This document shows, piece after piece, positions 25,755 to 46,267 of a stretch of DNA of 64,000 nucleotides (position 1 is its first letter; each line of letters starts with the position of its first letter). This DNA comes from Candidatus Zixiibacteriota bacterium (lineage in GTDB: Bacteria; Zixibacteria; MSB-5A5; DSPP01): contig JAKEHY010000009.1 in assembly GCA_022614805.1 (NCBI GenBank), positions 5,118-69,117 of the forward strand, in the 5' to 3' direction. A program made the translations under genes and the position numbers. The notes below the pieces were generated by a model, which was not told the origin of the DNA, did not search any database, and saw nothing but the letters and a program-made list of their open reading frames with translations.

Positions 25755-27074
25755 TTAATTTTTCCTTTCGGAGGTGTCCGGCAGCATGCCGGTCGGCTTG
25801 GCCTGCATGGTCTCCGTGTCCACGATGGTCGGGGTCACGAAAATGACCAGGTCCTTGTCCACCGTTTCCTTGCGGGTGTAGCGGAACAGATAGCCGAGCA
25901 GCGGGATATCCTTCAAAATCGGTATGCCGGTGTTGGTCTTACGCTCGTCCTTGGTGGTCAACCCGCCGATGACTGCGGTTTGTCCGTTTTCCACCACCAC
26001 ATTGGTGACGGCGTTGGAGGTGTTGATGATGACCCCGTTCGGGTCGAACTGGTAGGAGCTTTTTTCCGGCCGAAGCTGCAACAAAATTTTGTTATGCTCG
26101 GTCACGTGGGGGATAACCTTCAAAACGGTTCCCACGTCGTAGAAGGTAATGACCGTATTGCCGGAGGCATCGAATTGCTTGATGGGGATTTTCTGCCCCA
26201 CTTGAACGATCGCCTCCTTGTTGTCCACGGTGGTAATCTCCGGATGGGAAACGATTTTAATCTTTCCGTCCGTCGCCAAAGCCGTGATGCGGGCCTGCAC
26301 ATCCGGCCAAGCCACGCTGGAGGTTTTTAACTGCACGTCCGCAATCGGCGAGGAAGTCTGGTTCGCGTTCTGCTGAATGATGGCCTCTTCCAGGTCGGCT
26401 CCCGCCGAATTATCTTGCCAAGTAGCGCTCCAATTGATGCCCAACTCAAATAGATAGCGGTCCTCGATTTCAACCAGTTGGGTGGAGATTTTAATCTGCT
26501 TGGTCTCCAAATCCAGCTTGTGCACAAACTCCTCCACCCGGTCGATGTTTTTGGGGAGCTCGCTGACGATAAGCGAGTTGGTGCGCTGGTCAATTTCGAC
26601 TTTACCCCGTTCGGACAGCATCGATTTGACCGCTTTCTGCATATCGGTGGCGGAGGCGTTGTAAACCGGAATGATGCGGACCTCCAAAGGGGTCAGAAGT
26701 TTATGCTCGGCGATGCGCTTCGCATTTTCTGCCTGCTCGGTCAGATATTCCTTCATTGGAACGATGCGAATGTAGCCCCGCTCTTCGACGGCCATCAAAG
26801 AATAGGTCTTGGTGATGATGTCCAAAGCCTGCTCCCAGGTCACGTCAGTAAGCGAAATGGTTACCTGACCGGTCACCAAAGGGCTGACCACGATGTTGAT
26901 TTTCCCGCGGTCGGCCAGCATGGAGAAGACCGAGCGGACGTCGGCGTTCTGGAAAACCAAAGAACGCATCTTCTGGTTTTCCCCCTGCGGCCTCGCCGGC
27001 CCGGCCGAAAGCACCAAGAGAAGAAAGGCACCCAGAAGGAGCACCCTTTTATTGAGAACAGCACGCGTATTCAT
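25755..27074 (-). CDS. pilQ: type IV pilus secretin PilQ (short form, no AMIN domain)
   Basis: Signal peptide, an N0/STN-like region (LVFQNADVRSVFSMLADRGKINIVVSP), and a secretin C-domain (...VIGGLTTKDERKTNTGIPILKDIPLLGYLFRYT). Confidence 0.85.
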   Translation of the reverse strand: MNTRAVLNKRVLLLGAFLLLVLSAGPARPQGENQKMRSLVFQNADVRSVFSMLADRGKINIVVSPLVTGQVTISLTDVTWEQALDIITKTYSLMAVEERGYIRIVPMKEYLTEQAENAKRIAEHKLLTPLEVRIIPVYNASATDMQKAVKSMLSERGKVEIDQRTNSLIVSELPKNIDRVEEFVHKLDLETKQIKISTQLVEIEDRYLFELGINWSATWQDNSAGADLEEAIIQQNANQTSSPIADVQLKTSSVAWPDVQARITALATDGKIKIVSHPEITTVDNKEAIVQVGQKIPIKQFDASGNTVITFYDVGTVLKVIPHVTEHNKILLQLRPEKSSYQFDPNGVIINTSNAVTNVVVENGQTAVIGGLTTKDERKTNTGIPILKDIPLLGYLFRYTRKETVDKDLVIFVTPTIVDTETMQAKPTGMLPDTSERKN

Positions 27075-27099
27075 CAGCCACCTCTCTTTTTTCTATTTT

Positions 27100-44406: not shown

Positions 44407-44533
44407 ATAGCAATCGTCTCACTTACGTTTAAGCAAACCCCCTATCAAGTCCTTGCTTTTTTTGACTCCTTCTCATCTTCGTTTCGTTCAGCGCCGAACC
44501 GTTTGAGGCCATGTCTAAATTCCCGCTCTCCGC

Positions 44534-46267
44534 TTAGGCGGGAATCAATTCCCCTTTCGGTATATCGGCAAAATCCCCGGCGGAGGTGACCCGCAAAACC
44601 TCCTCCACGGTGGTCAACCCGGCCAAAATCTTTTCCGCCCCGTCCTGCCGCAAAAGCTTCATTCCCTGTTTGCGGGCTTCGGCCAAAATGGCGGCCGTGG
44701 AAGAGCGGCCGGCTATCAACTCTCGAATCGAATCGGTCACCACGAGCATTTCAAAAAGACCGAGCCGGCCGGAAAAGCCGCTCTGCTTGCATTCCCGGCA
44801 GCCGGCGCCCCGGTGGAAAACGGCGTTCGGGTCGTCTATCCAGAGCTCCTTCTTGAGGGACTCCGGCACCGTCACTTTTTCCTTGCAAGCCGGACAGATG
44901 CGCCGCACCAGCCGCTGGGCCACCACCGAGATCAGGGAAGCGGCCAAAAGGTACGCCTCCACTCCCATATCCAAAAGACGGGCCGTCGTGGAGGGGGCGT
45001 CGTTGGCGTGCAGGGTGGACAACACGAGATGCCCGGTCAAAGCCGAGCGGACGGCGATTTCGGCCGTTTCCCGGTCGCGGATTTCTCCGACCATTATGAT
45101 ATCCGGGTCCTGCCGCAAAATCGAGCGCAGGGCGTTGGCGAAAAAAAGCCCGGCCTTTTCGTTGGTTTGCACCTGGGAGATAAAGGGAATGTGGTATTCC
45201 ACCGGGTCTTCCACGGTGATGATGTTTTTTTCGACGGAGTTCAGCTCCCGCAGCATCCCATAGAGGGTGGAGGTCTTGCCGCTGCCGGTCGGGCCGGTGA
45301 CCAGAATGAACCCTTCCGGTTTTTTCATCCCCTGGCGCAAGCGGGAAAGCAGGGCTGCGGGCAACCCGATTTTATCCAGATGGATGGCCAGGCTGGATTT
45401 GTCCAAAATTCTAAGCACCACCTTTTCGCCGAATATGGTGGGGAGGGTGGAAACGCGGAAATCGACTTCGTGCTTCTCCACCCGGTAGGTGAAGCGCCCG
45501 TCCTGGGGAAGCCGTTTTTCGGAGACATCCATATTGGCCATAATTTTGATGCGGGAAACGATGGCCGGGGCCAGCTCCCTGGGGGGGTTGGCCGCCTCGC
45601 GCATAAGGCCGTGAATCCGGAAGCGCACCCGCAAGTGGGCTTCTTCCGGTTCGATGTGAATATCGGAGGCCGTATCCCGAATCCCCTGCGTCAAAAGCAA
45701 ATTGACCAAGCGGATGATGGGGGCGTCGTCGGCCGCTCCGGCAATTTCTCCCGCCTTTCGGGAAACTTCCGCCAGTTCCTTGCCGAACTCTTCCGTCGGC
45801 AGCCCCATTTCCCGGACCACCTCTGCCACCGAATCCTGCACGGTGTAATAGTCCGAAATTGCTTTCTGAACCTGCGAAGGCGCCGCGATGACCCGGTTGA
45901 TTTCCAGCCCGGTGTGGTATTTTAGCTCCTCGACCGCAATCAAATCCAAGGGGTCAACCATGGCGACCGTGAGCGCGCCCCCCAGTTGCAGGATGGGAAT
46001 AAGCCGGTGTTTTTTGGCCAGTTCCACCGGAACCCGCCGGATAACCTCGGGGGCGATGACCAGGTTGTCGACGTTGACTTTGGGGATGGAGAGTTTTTCC
46101 GAAATTATCGAGAGGAAGTCCTCTTCGGTGATAACCCCCTGGCGGATGAGGATGTCCCCCACCCGCTCGCCGGTCTTTTTCTGGATTTTTAAAGCTTCAT
46201 CCAGCTGCTTTTGGGTAACCAGCTTTTTCTCCAAAAGCAGCTCGCCGATGCGCTTTTTGCTTTCCAT
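44534..46267 (-). CDS. pilB: type IV pilus / T2SS assembly ATPase (PilB/GspE family)
   Basis: N-terminal T2SSE_N domain, Walker A GPTGSGKTST, and a tetracysteine motif (CPACKEK...CRECKQSG). Confidence 0.88.
   Translation of the reverse strand: MESKKRIGELLLEKKLVTQKQLDEALKIQKKTGERVGDILIRQGVITEEDFLSIISEKLSIPKVNVDNLVIAPEVIRRVPVELAKKHRLIPILQLGGALTVAMVDPLDLIAVEELKYHTGLEINRVIAAPSQVQKAISDYYTVQDSVAEVVREMGLPTEEFGKELAEVSRKAGEIAGAADDAPIIRLVNLLLTQGIRDTASDIHIEPEEAHLRVRFRIHGLMREAANPPRELAPAIVSRIKIMANMDVSEKRLPQDGRFTYRVEKHEVDFRVSTLPTIFGEKVVLRILDKSSLAIHLDKIGLPAALLSRLRQGMKKPEGFILVTGPTGSGKTSTLYGMLRELNSVEKNIITVEDPVEYHIPFISQVQTNEKAGLFFANALRSILRQDPDIIMVGEIRDRETAEIAVRSALTGHLVLSTLHANDAPSTTARLLDMGVEAYLLAASLISVVAQRLVRRICPACKEKVTVPESLKKELWIDDPNAVFHRGAGCRECKQSGFSGRLGLFEMLVVTDSIRELIAGRSSTAAILAEARKQGMKLLRQDGAEKILAGLTTVEEVLRVTSAGDFADIPKGELIPA

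What the first reader, a model, noticed from the sequence alone, without database searches (positions are those of the whole stretch)
25755..46267. Two complete but non-identical pilus/T2SS-like envelope machines within 20 kb, sharing one set of ATPases
Cluster 1 (24465-34067) is pilT | pilQ, AMIN-pilP, pilO, pilN, pilM, two pilins, a sigma54 promoter, pilR. It has a retraction ATPase but no pilB or pilC. Cluster 2 (37038-46267) is pilB, pilC, three pilins (one of 381 aa), a PilM-N fusion (GspL-like), a PilO-like gene, a PilP/GspC-like gene, and a short secretin. It has no pilT and looks as much like a T2SS (E-F-G-pseudopilins-L-M-C-D order) as a T4aP. Each has its own short secretin (439 and 427 aa). 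It is unclear whether they form one composite T4aP with two outer-membrane channels or a T4aP plus a compact T2SS-like secretion system that shares PilB/PilC.
Basis: inference. Interest (0 to 1): 0.55.

Follow-up and report, generated by a model that had tools for sequence, protein, structure and literature searches.

The report
Two separate pilus-type machines, neighbours
A Zixibacteria genome carries an ordinary type IV pilus envelope operon a few kilobases from a compact, self-contained nine-gene pilus/secretion-like operon that is common in uncultured bacteria; nothing shows that they share motors, so this is a mildly interesting variant, not a new kind of machine.

Summary
The gene inventory is real and lies at the stated coordinates. 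The window comes from a Zixibacteria MAG (GCA_973680415.1).

Cluster 1 is a canonical T4aP alignment/secretin operon: FimU- and PilV-like pilins, then pilM-N-O-P-Q. It sits behind a sigma54-type promoter and a PilR-like regulator.

Cluster 2 is a tightly packed operon: PilB-like ATPase, PilC, three pilins, a PilM-PilN fusion, a PilO-like protein, a membrane-anchored HR-domain protein, and a short secretin.

The "shared ATPases / composite machine" reading is not supported:
- Cluster 2 recurs as a stand-alone unit in at least 8 other lineages without cluster 1.
- Cluster 1 in 17 other Zixibacteria species never has pilB, pilC or pilT within 10 kb, as is usual for T4aP.
- pilT normally sits between accB and accC. 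Its position beside pilQ here is a recent rearrangement, and it has its own terminators.
- No prepilin peptidase is in the window, so pilus genes are dispersed anyway.

Sharing cannot be excluded, because the rest of the genome could not be searched.

Cluster 2 is neither a canonical T2SS nor a canonical T4aP. Its ATPase, major pilin and PilM fold are T4aP-like. Its gene order, fused M-N, GspB/C-like HR protein, lack of pilT and very conserved pilin are T2SS-like.

The parts
24465..25580 (-). pilT, retraction ATPase. A separate transcription unit, not ancestrally linked to cluster 1.
   Evidence: TIGR01420 451 bits > 319. Terminators lie on both sides. Orthologues sit between accB and accC in L031, L032, L039 and L040. 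The window keeps only the accC-gcvH side.
25713..25736 (-). Intrinsic-terminator-like hairpin after pilQ1.
   Evidence: 10-bp stem with 7 GC pairs, followed by a T-run.
25755..27074 (-). Secretin 1 (PilQ type, 439 aa): N0/STN + one Secretin_N + secretin domain, no AMIN.
   Evidence: TIGR02515 292.3 > 284.35. In the PDB it scores 191 bits to Myxococcus PilQ against 135 bits to GspD.
27100..28857 (-). PilP-position protein (585 aa): signal peptide, AMIN-like N-domain, ~330-aa Pro/Ala/Thr/Ser linker, PilP-like C-domain (RRDPFSPL motif).
   Evidence: No Pfam hit on the whole protein. On sub-sequences, AMIN scores 18.4 bits and PilP 14.5 bits, both below cutoff. Synteny between pilO and pilQ is kept in 17 Zixibacteria loci.
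28854..29447 (-). pilO (cluster 1).
   Evidence: Pfam PilO 88.8 bits.
29458..30156 (-). pilN (cluster 1), with the canonical N-terminal INLLP PilM-binding motif.
   Evidence: Pfam PilN 48 bits. The sequence starts MIEINLLPKE.
30158..31210 (-). pilM (cluster 1).
   Evidence: TIGR01175 198.5 > 133 and PilM_2 196 bits.
31306..31788 (-). FimU/GspH-like minor prepilin (160 aa).
   Evidence: Pfam GspH and N_methyl hits; leader ...KQTG|VTMMEL. Conserved upstream of pilM in most Zixibacteria loci.
32038..32430 (-). PilV/GspI-like prepilin (130 aa).
   Evidence: N_methyl 42 bits. N-terminal matches to PilV and GspI models fall below cutoffs. Identity falls to 50% in L016 and it is undetected in most other Zixibacteria loci.
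32500..32514 (-). Sigma54-type -24/-12 element TGGCAG-N5-TTGC(A), upstream of the 130-aa prepilin.
   Evidence: One mismatch to TGGCAC-N5-TTGC. It is one of only two 1-mismatch sites in the window and lies about 70 nt before the ATG. The motif count in the window is not above chance, so the position is the argument.
32700..34067 (-). NtrC-family sigma54 response regulator (PilR-like by position).
   Evidence: Response_reg + Sigma54_activat + HTH_8. No NCBIfam equivalog cutoff is reached. Synteny is kept in L005, L010, L041, L014 and L016.
37038..38321 (-). Secretin 2 (427 aa): N0/STN + one weak Secretin_N + secretin domain. No AMIN, no S-domain.
   Evidence: Pfam Secretin 156 bits and STN 45 bits. 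PilQ model 228 bits against GspD model 219 bits, both below cutoff. PDB: 122 bits to PilQ against 121 bits to GspD.
38318..38794 (-). TM-anchored HR-domain protein (158 aa), the GspC/GspB/PilP analogue.
   Evidence: CdsD_C 36.5 bits > 27. Among 8 orthologues, 8 hit T2SSB, 7 hit CdsD_C and 2 hit T2SSC. The (R/D)(D/N)PF motif is conserved. The GspB periplasmic domain has the GspC/PilP HR fold and binds secretin N0 (PMC9239104).
38794..39366 (-). PilO/GspM-like protein (190 aa).
   Evidence: PilO 19.6 bits (< 22) and GspM 16.8 bits. Orthologues at the same position hit PilO in L038 and T2SSM_b in L037.
39363..41084 (-). PilM-PilN fusion (about 568 aa; likely start at 41069).
   Evidence: PilM_2 hit at residues 136-271 and PilN hit at 498-571. 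The AF2 model (pLDDT 66.7) has an actin-like domain at 54-370, a long helix at 380-477 and a ferredoxin-like domain at 482-566. Foldseek: PilM 5eou E 2.7e-16 against GspL cytoplasmic domain about 1e-7. The family has 158 representatives at E<=1e-30.
41090..42235 (-). Large prepilin (381 aa): a GspG-like globular motif followed by Gly/Ser/Thr-rich beta-rich C-terminal modules.
   Evidence: N_methyl 28.7 bits; T2SSG 20.2 bits (< 21). Leader KG|FTLIE. Orthologues are present in L005, L007, L008, L036 and L041, and absent in the L003 type. The structure model was unusable.
42243..42689 (-). Prepilin (148 aa) with a GspG-like globular motif.
   Evidence: N_methyl 26 bits and T2SSG 19.4 bits. 51-58% identical in distant modules.
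42739..43167 (-). Probable major pilin of cluster 2 (142 aa), and the most conserved protein of the module.
   Evidence: The profile matches T4a major pilins (Geobacter PilA 52, MshA 50, PilE 47 bits) far better than GspG (25.7). It is 67-79% identical in modules where PilB is 48-53% identical.
43192..44406 (-). Platform protein (PilC/GspF family).
   Evidence: T2SSF 194.8 bits. GspF model 336 bits (< 424); PilC models 314 and 299 bits (< 700). PDB: Myxococcus PilC 240 bits.
44534..46267 (-). Extension ATPase with full PilB architecture and an N-terminal MshE-type c-di-GMP motif.
   Evidence: PilB model 627.5 bits (< 675.65) and GspE model 606.2 bits (< 630.25). The c-di-GMP motif model scores 67.4 bits > 38. 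PDB: PilB 535-539 bits against EpsE 413 bits.

Best explanation

Cluster 1 is the envelope-spanning alignment/secretin operon of a canonical, dispersed T4aP: a FimU-like and a PilV-like minor pilin, PilM, PilN, PilO, an AMIN-linker-PilP protein and a short PilQ. It is probably switched on by the adjacent sigma54 response regulator. As in most T4aP-bearing bacteria, its extension ATPase, platform protein, major pilin and prepilin peptidase are encoded at other loci. PilT is a stand-alone gene.

Cluster 2 is a self-sufficient, translationally coupled nine-gene operon of T4aP ancestry. A c-di-GMP-responsive PilB-type ATPase and a PilC platform polymerise a very conserved 142-aa pilin, primed or capped by two further pilins. 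The filament assembles on a scaffold made of a PilM-PilN fusion and a PilO-like protein. This scaffold is coupled through a membrane-anchored HR-domain protein to the N0 ring of its own short secretin.

Cluster 2 has no dedicated retraction ATPase, a hyper-conserved pilin, and GspL/GspC/GspB-like topology. It therefore most likely builds a short, non-exposed or functionally constrained filament (a T2SS-like endopilus) rather than a variable surface pilus.

Shown: gene content, domain assignments, conservation of the module as a unit, lineage-specific adjacency.

Inferred: operon-level autonomy in function, existence of a separate pilB/pilC for cluster 1, and secretion-like function of cluster 2.
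For: - Domain and family assignments.
- The paralogous parts are anciently diverged. The secretins are 27% identical, and PilO and PilP show no detectable similarity.
- Genes of cluster 2 overlap or lie <=50 bp apart, apart from a 127-bp gap between pilB and pilC.
- The same E-F-pilins-PilMN-PilO-HR-secretin operon stands alone, with no cluster 1, pilT or prepilin peptidase within 5-10 kb, in L003, L007, L008, L036, L049, L050, L051 and L053. Variants occur in L037 and L038.
- The two clusters are adjacent only in the window clade: L005/L043/L044, L010 and L041.
- Cluster-1-type operons in 17 other Zixibacteria species genomes have no pilB, pilC, pilT or gspO homologue within 10 kb.
- pilT is embedded in pepM24-accB-pilT-accC-gcvH in L031 (closed chromosome), L032, L039 and L040. 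L040 is from the same assembly as L010. The window retains only the accC side, and terminators flank pilT.
- There is no prepilin peptidase in the window, so at least one essential gene is elsewhere.
- The major pilin is the most conserved module protein.
- PilMN fold and HR-type protein (PMC9239104).
- Literature: T4aP genes are typically multi-locus, and the Bacteroidetes 'T2SS' groups with T4aP (PMC6668835). PulL equals a PilM+PilN fusion, and T2SS arose from T4aP by loss of PilT (PMC10191384).
Against: - No second pilB/pilC pair was found, because the rest of the genome (and the closed Zixibacteria chromosome CP070742.1) could not be searched.
- Cluster 1 has only minor-pilin-like genes, in the window and across the phylum. 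The only major-pilin-like gene seen is in cluster 2, and its N-terminal helix is T4a-pilin-like.
- The ATPase has PilB rather than GspE architecture, and the PilMN cytoplasmic domain is full-size PilM rather than a reduced GspL. A true pilus function for cluster 2 is therefore quite possible.
- The secretion-like function has no direct evidence. No substrate genes were identified, and these bacteria also have T9SS cargo.
Confidence: 0.6

Rival explanations
1. Composite or shared-motor model. Zixibacteria have a single PilB-PilC-major pilin set, the one in cluster 2. It serves both envelope sub-complexes, or cluster 1 depends on it. PilT then retracts the filament made of the 142-aa pilin, and the FimU/PilV-like pilins of cluster 1 complete the minor-pilin set.
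For: - The only extension ATPase, platform protein and major-pilin-like gene in 64 kb are in cluster 2.
- The ATPase, PilC and the pilin N-terminus are T4aP-like.
- Cluster 1 never carries a major pilin, pilB or pilC in 17 other Zixibacteria species.
- The pilin types are complementary: H-like and I-like in cluster 1, and a major pilin plus two others in cluster 2.
- The two clusters are kept adjacent in four lineages of the window clade.
Against: - Cluster 2 already has its own complete M-N-O-P-Q equivalent and recurs as an autonomous unit without cluster 1 nearby in at least 8 lineages.
- ATPase-less pilMNOPQ operons are the normal T4aP layout (PMC6668835).
- The prepilin peptidase is missing from the window, which shows that further pilus loci exist.
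- Three unrelated genes (rmuC, ubiE and a lipoprotein gene) and separate promoters and terminators lie between the clusters.
- No precedent is known to me for one PilB/PilC serving two different alignment complexes.
Confidence: 0.2
2. Cluster 2 is a competence-type (DNA-uptake) or other non-secretory T4aP-like pilus, analogous to the E. coli/Haemophilus Hof/Com system with its short AMIN-less secretin. Retraction is PilT-independent or uses the stand-alone PilT.
For: - Both secretins resemble the short HofQ type. Secretin 2 scores 105 bits to HofQ against 93 bits to GspD of E. coli.
- T4a-like major pilin and PilB.
- Diderm transformation systems class as T4aP (PMC6668835).
- A conserved pilin could reflect a conserved ligand such as DNA.
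Against: - No comEA/comEC-type genes or DNA-binding domains were seen in or next to the module in any of about 12 loci.
- The rmuC neighbour is present only in the window clade.
- The TM-anchored GspB/GspC-type HR protein and the fused M-N are not features of the Hof/Com systems.
Confidence: 0.12
3. Cluster 1 is a decaying or non-functional remnant, and only cluster 2 is active.
For: Cluster 1 lacks its own motor, platform and major pilin in the window.
Against: - All ORFs are intact, and the canonical PilN INLLP motif is present.
- PilM is 64-69% identical across 17 Zixibacteria species with conserved gene order.
- PilT is about 70% identical across the phylum.
- PilQ and PilM pass curated cutoffs.
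Confidence: 0.03

Closest known systems
Canonical T4aP machine (PilMNOPQ + PilB/PilC/PilT; Myxococcus xanthus, Pseudomonas aeruginosa)
   Same: Cluster 1 has separate PilM and PilN (with the INLLP motif), PilO, a PilP-position protein and a PilQ secretin that pass curated models. It also has sigma54/PilR-like control, and its motor genes are not in the same operon, as in Pseudomonas. In cluster 2, the ATPase, PilC, the pilin N-terminus and the PilM fold also score best against T4aP proteins.
   Different: In cluster 1, PilQ lacks AMIN domains, and an AMIN-like domain sits instead on the PilP-like protein behind a ~330-aa linker. No major pilin is present. In cluster 2, PilM and PilN are fused, PilP is replaced by a TM-anchored GspB/C-type HR protein, there are no FimU-PilVWX-PilY1 genes and no pilT, and the pilin is hyper-conserved.
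Classical proteobacterial T2SS (Gsp/Pul/Eps)
   Same: Cluster 2 shares the gene order E-F-major pilin-other pilins-L(=M+N fusion)-M-like-C/B-like-D, the absence of a retraction ATPase, a bitopic HR-domain protein, a conserved major subunit, and GspG-like motifs in two pilins (PMC10191384).
   Different: - No NCBIfam Gsp equivalog cutoff is reached.
- The secretin has one N-domain instead of N1-N3 and has no S-domain.
- There are no GspH/I/J/K or GspN genes, and no PDZ domain on the HR protein.
- The cytoplasmic domain of the fusion is full-size PilM, not a reduced GspL.
- The ATPase carries the longer PilB/MshE N-terminus.
- The major pilin is closer to T4a pilins than to GspG.
Bacteroidetes 'T2SS' (Cytophaga hutchinsonii chu_3191-3202)
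   Same: It is also from the FCB group. It has divergent L/M/C-like proteins recognisable only by remote homology to PilM/N/O/P and few minor pseudopilins (PMC5553014). In phylogenies it clusters with T4aP rather than T2SS (PMC6668835), the same mixed signal seen here.
   Different: The gene order is different, and the Cytophaga cluster includes the prepilin peptidase (chu_3197). Cluster 2 and all its relatives examined lack one. Sequences could not be compared directly here.
PilM-PilN fusion proteins of T4P-like clusters (Akkermansia Amuc_1101 family; clostridial PilMN, the latter from my own knowledge)
   Same: A full-size PilM is fused to PilN. PilM1 and PilN1 of the window align to positions 5-350 and 355-480 of the 608-residue Amuc_1101 model, and the cluster-2 fusion also hits that model (46.6 bits).
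   Different: Scores are far below the family cutoff of 650. The Akkermansia secretin is about 800 aa, and the clostridial systems have no secretin.
E. coli Hof/Ppd system (HofB, HofC, PpdD, HofMNOPQ)
   Same: It has a short AMIN-less secretin of about 410-440 aa. Both window secretins score higher to HofQ than to E. coli GspD: 161 against 122 bits, and 105 against 93 bits.
   Different: The Hof genes are in two loci with separate HofM and HofN. The window ATPase and platform score higher to GspE and GspF than to HofB and HofC: 397 against 337 bits, and 171 against 151 bits.

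Membership tests
T4aP (cluster 1) | Separate PilM (actin-like) and PilN with an N-terminal INLLP PilM-binding peptide | tested here: met
   TIGR01175 198.5 > 133 and Pfam PilN 48 > 22.8. PilN starts MIEINLLP.
T4aP (cluster 1) | PilO and PilP | tested here: inconclusive
   PilO is clear at 88.8 bits. PilP rests only on a sub-threshold 14.5-bit hit, the RDPF motif and its position between pilO and pilQ.
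T4aP (cluster 1) | PilQ-type secretin | tested here: met
   TIGR02515 292.3 > 284.35. The best PDB matches are PilQ proteins. AMIN domains are absent from PilQ itself.
T4aP (cluster 1) | Retraction ATPase PilT | tested here: met
   TIGR01420 451 > 319. However, it is a separate transcription unit whose conserved context is accB-pilT-accC.
T4aP (cluster 1) | Dedicated PilB, PilC, major pilin and PilD | not testable with these tools
   None lies in cluster 1 or elsewhere in the window apart from cluster 2, and there is no prepilin peptidase in the window. The rest of GCA_973680415.1 could not be searched.
Canonical T2SS (cluster 2) | GspE, GspF and GspD equivalogs | tested here: not met
   GspE 606.2 < 630.25, GspF 336.2 < 424, GspD 219.2 < 351.35. 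The secretin has N0 plus only one N-domain.
Canonical T2SS (cluster 2) | Major pseudopilin GspG and minor pseudopilins GspH-I-J-K | tested here: not met
   Best GspG score is 36.6 < 88.85. There are no GspH/I/J/K hits above cutoff and only three pilins. The major pilin profile is closer to T4a pilins.
Canonical T2SS (cluster 2) | GspL (PilM-like + TM + PilN-like in one chain) and GspM | tested here: inconclusive
   The fusion topology is present. But the fold is closer to full PilM (E 2.7e-16) than to the GspL cytoplasmic domain (about 1e-7). GspM scores 16.8 bits and PilO 19.6 bits, both below cutoff.
Canonical T2SS (cluster 2) | GspC: a bitopic protein with an HR domain (plus PDZ or coiled coil) that binds secretin N0 | tested here: inconclusive
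   A TM helix plus an HR-type domain is present: T2SSB hits in 8 of 8 orthologues, T2SSC in 2 of 8, CdsD_C 36.5 > 27. No PDZ domain. Binding was not tested.
Canonical T2SS (cluster 2) | No retraction ATPase in the system; secretes folded periplasmic proteins | not testable with these tools
   No pilT lies in or next to the module in about 12 loci. Secretion itself cannot be assessed from sequence.
T4aP (cluster 2) | PilB-type extension ATPase | tested here: inconclusive
   TIGR02538 is the best model, at 627.5 bits, but below its 675.65 cutoff. The alignment is full-length (7-562). PDB PilB proteins score 535-539 bits against 413 bits for GspE.
MSH pilus (cluster 2) | MshE with a c-di-GMP-binding N-terminus, MshL secretin, MshI/J/K, MshN | tested here: not met
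   The c-di-GMP motif is present at 67.4 > 38, but MshL scores 152.7 < 250.2 and there is no MshN-type (TPR) gene.
Bacteroidetes-type 'T2SS' (Cytophaga) | Cluster containing D, E, O (peptidase), G, F plus divergent L/M/C | tested here: not met
   No prepilin peptidase lies in cluster 2 or in any related module. The gene order differs from chu_3191-3202 (PMC5553014). Sequence relatedness was not tested.

The most novel reading that the evidence does not exclude
One PilB-PilC motor/platform pair and one hyper-conserved major pilin (all in cluster 2) serve two structurally different envelope conduits. One is the canonical PilMNOPQ set of cluster 1, which would be retractile with PilT. The other is the compact PilMN-PilO-HR-secretin set of cluster 2. 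The cell would then switch the same filament between a surface pilus and a secretion or endopilus mode, for example through c-di-GMP on PilB and sigma54 control of cluster 1.
Probability: 0.15. Interest if true: 0.7.

Novelty: new variant of a known kind. Interest (0 to 1): 0.3.

Why it matters
This case shows that a missing pilB/pilC next to pilMNOPQ should not be read as motor sharing, because T4aP genes are normally dispersed.

The useful residue is cluster 2. It represents a widespread, uncharacterised compact type IV filament operon:
- The PilMN-fusion family has 158 representatives (50%-identity clusters) at E<=1e-30 in public data.
- It mixes T4aP-type parts with T2SS-type organisation.
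- Its pilin is more conserved than its ATPase.

The family sits near the T4aP-to-T2SS transition discussed in the literature, alongside the Bacteroidetes 'T2SS' that groups with T4aP. It could therefore be a tractable nine-gene model for asking what minimal changes turn a pilus machine into a secretion machine. For Zixibacteria ecology it adds a candidate secretion or adhesion route beside T9SS.

Tried and rejected
1. Looking for a second pilB/pilC in the same genome or in the closed Zixibacteria chromosome CP070742.1 was not possible. Contig look-ups accept only window proteins or listed hits. The top-120 PilB list cuts off at 578 bits, above where canonical PilBs score (about 540 bits), so absence from that list says nothing.
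2. I hoped pilT neighbourhoods would reveal pilB-pilT-pilC loci. They did not. pilT is always in accB-pilT-accC.
3. A neighbour-joining tree of the 112 PilB hits under 700 aa from the top 120 plus locus-derived PilBs grouped the window with other cluster-2-type modules. It had no named T2SS or T4aP references, so it cannot place the ATPase. E. coli GspE/HofB and PDB scores were used instead, and they disagree with each other once the N-terminal domain is excluded.
4. Single-sequence AlphaFold of the 381-aa pilin failed (pLDDT 43), and no fold search was run on it.
5. A profile of the HR-protein family against the PDB gave only a non-significant PilP hit (E 0.96).
6. Counting sigma54 motifs across the window gave fewer matches than chance. 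Only the position of the 1-mismatch site supports it.
7. Recent duplication of one cluster from the other is rejected, because the paralogues are 25-27% identical or show no detectable similarity.
8. The MSH pilus and Tad families were considered and rejected on model scores and gene content.
9. A literature search found nothing on Zixibacteria pili or T2SS.

Full report
**Origin and observation**

The window maps to contig CCYTVS010000026.1 (509,772 bp) of assembly GCA_973680415.1. Homologues are named Zixibacteria, and neighbouring genes carry T9SS sorting domains typical of the FCB group.

Cluster 1 consists of:
- a 130-aa PilV/GspI-like prepilin and a 160-aa FimU/GspH-like prepilin;
- PilM (TIGR01175 198 > 133);
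- PilN, which starts MIEINLLP, the canonical PilM-binding peptide;
- PilO (88.8 bits);
- a 585-aa protein;
- a 439-aa secretin that passes the PilQ model (292.3 > 284.35).

The 585-aa protein has no Pfam hit as a whole. Its ends give sub-threshold AMIN (18.4 bits) and PilP (14.5 bits) hits around a ~330-aa Pro/Ala/Thr/Ser linker. 'AMIN-PilP' is therefore plausible but weakly supported.

A -24/-12 element, TGGCAG-N5-TTGCA, lies about 70 nt upstream of the first pilin. It sits behind an NtrC-family response regulator. The motif count in the window is not above chance, so only its position counts.

Strong terminator-like hairpins follow pilQ and pilT.

Cluster 2 consists of:
- a 577-aa T2SSE ATPase and a 404-aa T2SSF platform protein;
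- three prepilins (142, 148 and 381 aa; all with G|FTL(I/V)E leaders);
- a ~568-aa PilM+PilN fusion;
- a 190-aa weak PilO/GspM match;
- a 158-aa TM + HR-type protein;
- a 427-aa secretin.

The genes of cluster 2 overlap or lie within about 50 bp of each other, apart from a 127-bp gap between pilB and pilC.

The 64-kb window holds one PilB-type ATPase, one PilT, one PilC and five prepilins. It holds no prepilin peptidase.

**Are the two sets related by recent duplication?**

No. The secretins are 27% identical. PilM and the fusion are 25% identical over half the length. The PilO and PilP equivalents show no detectable similarity. These are two old lineages of machinery.

**Is cluster 2 an autonomous unit?**

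Yes. Contexts of PilMN and PilB homologues show the same operon: E-F-pilin~142-pilin~150-(pilin~382)-PilMN~540-PilO-like~190-HR protein~150-secretin~430.
- It stands alone in another Zixibacteria MAG (L007), in GCA_964627935.1 (L008) and in JGI metagenome contigs (L003, L036, L049, L050, L051, L053).
- More distant variants occur in L037 and L038.
- None of these loci has cluster 1, pilT or a gspO homologue within the 5-10 kb available.

The two clusters are adjacent only in the window clade (L005=L043/L044, L010, L041). There the order cluster 2 - lipoprotein - ubiE - rmuC - regulator - cluster 1 is conserved.

A profile of the fusion protein finds 158 representatives (50%-identity clusters) at E<=1e-30. 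About 90 of them are full-length proteins of 520-545 aa. The module is therefore common in uncultured bacteria.

**Is it unusual that cluster 1 lacks pilB/pilC?**

No. In 17 other Zixibacteria species genomes, including the closed chromosome CP070742.1, the FimU-like-pilM-N-O-P-Q operon has no pilB, pilC, pilT or gspO homologue within 10 kb. This is the usual multi-locus layout of T4aP (PMC6668835).

pilT is not a cluster-1 gene either.
- In L031 (closed chromosome), L032, L039 and L040 it lies in pepM24-accB-pilT-accC-gcvH.
- L040 comes from the same assembly as L010, the closest relative in which clusters 2 and 1 are adjacent. Even there, pilT is elsewhere.
- The window keeps the accC-gcvH side, but the accB side is replaced by cluster 1.

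The pilQ|pilT junction is therefore a recent rearrangement, or possibly an assembly join.

Because the prepilin peptidase is also absent from the window and from every module examined, at least one essential component is encoded elsewhere and probably serves both systems.

**What kind of system is cluster 2?**

The signals are mixed.

T4aP-like features:
- The ATPase aligns end to end with the PilB model (627.5 bits, best but below the 675.65 cutoff).
- It scores 535-539 bits to Geobacter and Myxococcus PilB against 413 bits to EpsE.
- It carries the MshE-type c-di-GMP motif (67.4 > 38).
- PilC scores 240 bits to Myxococcus PilC.
- The profile of the 142-aa pilin matches T4a major pilins (47-52 bits) far better than GspG (25.7 bits).
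- The AlphaFold model of the fusion (pLDDT 66.7, core 70-90) superposes on full-size PilM (E 2.7e-16, TM 0.62) better than on the reduced GspL cytoplasmic domain (E about 1e-7).
- The secretin has the N0 + one N-domain layout of PilQ/HofQ rather than the N0-N3 of GspD.

T2SS-like features:
- The gene order is E-F-G-...-L-M-C-D.
- PilM and PilN are fused. PulL is such a fusion (PMC10191384).
- The HR-domain protein is bitopic. All 8 of its orthologues hit Pfam T2SSB and 2 hit T2SSC. The GspB domain has the GspC/PilP HR fold and binds secretin N0 (PMC9239104).
- The 148- and 381-aa pilins have GspG-like globular motifs.
- There is no pilT.
- The major pilin is strikingly conserved. It is 67-79% identical, along its whole length, in modules where PilB is 48-53%, PilC 39-47%, the secretin 35-42% and the fusion 21-24% identical.

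Exposed T4a major pilins normally vary, whereas T2SS major pseudopilins are conserved (my own knowledge). I take this as the best hint for a short or non-exposed filament.

No NCBIfam Gsp or Pil equivalog cutoff is reached by any cluster-2 protein. Secretin 2 is tied between PilQ and GspD (228 against 219 bits; 122 against 121 bits).

The same ambiguity is documented for the Bacteroidetes 'T2SS' of Cytophaga. It functions in cellulose utilisation (PMC5553014) yet clusters with T4aP in phylogenies (PMC6668835).

**Conclusion**

The best-supported reading (about 0.6) is two independent type IV filament machines that are neighbours by lineage-specific rearrangement.
- One is a dispersed canonical T4aP, of which cluster 1 is the envelope operon.
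- The other is an autonomous compact T4aP-derived operon with T2SS-like organisation.

The shared-motor model (about 0.2) remains open. Two observations keep it alive: the only major-pilin-like gene and the only PilB/PilC seen are in cluster 2, and the rest of the genome could not be searched. A competence-type pilus (about 0.12) and a degenerate cluster 1 (about 0.03) are less likely.

Two T4F systems in one genome is ordinary, and their proximity here is incidental. The compact module is a new variant of a known kind and deserves modest interest.

Noticed in passing
window 42739-43167; L003:9075-9497, L007:12990-13418, L008:13005-13436, L036:12955-13377, L049-L053: The 142-aa pilin is the most conserved protein of the cluster-2 module, more conserved than the ATPase. 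It is 67-79% identical where PilB is 48-53% identical, and this includes an invariant C-terminal GGW..TGE.WPNT..GEN motif.
   Followed up: partly
window 25580-25755 (junction pilQ1|pilT); L040, L010: In the closest relative (GCA_964607165.1), pilT is on another contig in an accB-pilT-accC context. In the window the accB side is replaced by cluster 1. This is either a recent rearrangement or an assembly join.
   Followed up: partly
window 27100-28857: The PilP-position protein is 585 aa. It has an AMIN-like N-domain and a ~330-aa Pro/Ala/Thr/Ser-rich linker, while the PilQ next to it has no AMIN domain. The peptidoglycan-binding module appears to have moved from the secretin to PilP.
   Followed up: partly
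window 36383-36823: A 144-146-aa probable lipoprotein (..IFAAC|G) with no Pfam or NCBIfam hit lies directly downstream of secretin 2. It is conserved there only in the window clade (L005, L010, L041). It could be a pilotin candidate or simply the first gene of the ubiE operon.
   Followed up: no
window 41090-42235 and 39363-41084: The public gene call for the large pilin (368 aa) starts inside the prepilin leader. The GTG at 42235 restores KG|FTLIE. Homologues place the start of the PilMN fusion at 41069 (TTG).
   Followed up: yes
window 44534-46267 (N-terminal residues 6-58): The ATPase has two tandem MshEN-type c-di-GMP-binding motifs (RIGELLLEKKLVTQKQLDEALKIQ / RVGDILIRQGVITEEDFLSIISEK). 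This suggests c-di-GMP control of cluster 2.
   Followed up: partly
window 18683-24328: Three plus-strand genes are inserted between pilT and accC: a 716-aa unknown, a 352-aa protein with a T9SS C-terminal sorting domain, and a 791-aa FG-GAP repeat protein. A similar FG-GAP/T9SS-cargo insertion is present in L032.
   Followed up: no
window 48025-51003: A large (992-aa ORF) TPR-GAF sigma54 activator lies upstream of the sugar-nucleotide genes that precede cluster 2. It is conserved in L005 and L041 but not next to stand-alone modules. No sigma54-type promoter was seen in front of pilB.
   Followed up: no
window 51349-53097, 53416-56184, 58772-60997: Three long ORFs (582, 922 and 741 aa) have no Pfam match at E<=1e-4.
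   Followed up: no
window 31785-32024: A 79-aa ORF is called in the public annotation between the two cluster-1 pilins. It overlaps another frame, has no pilin leader, and is probably spurious.
   Followed up: partly
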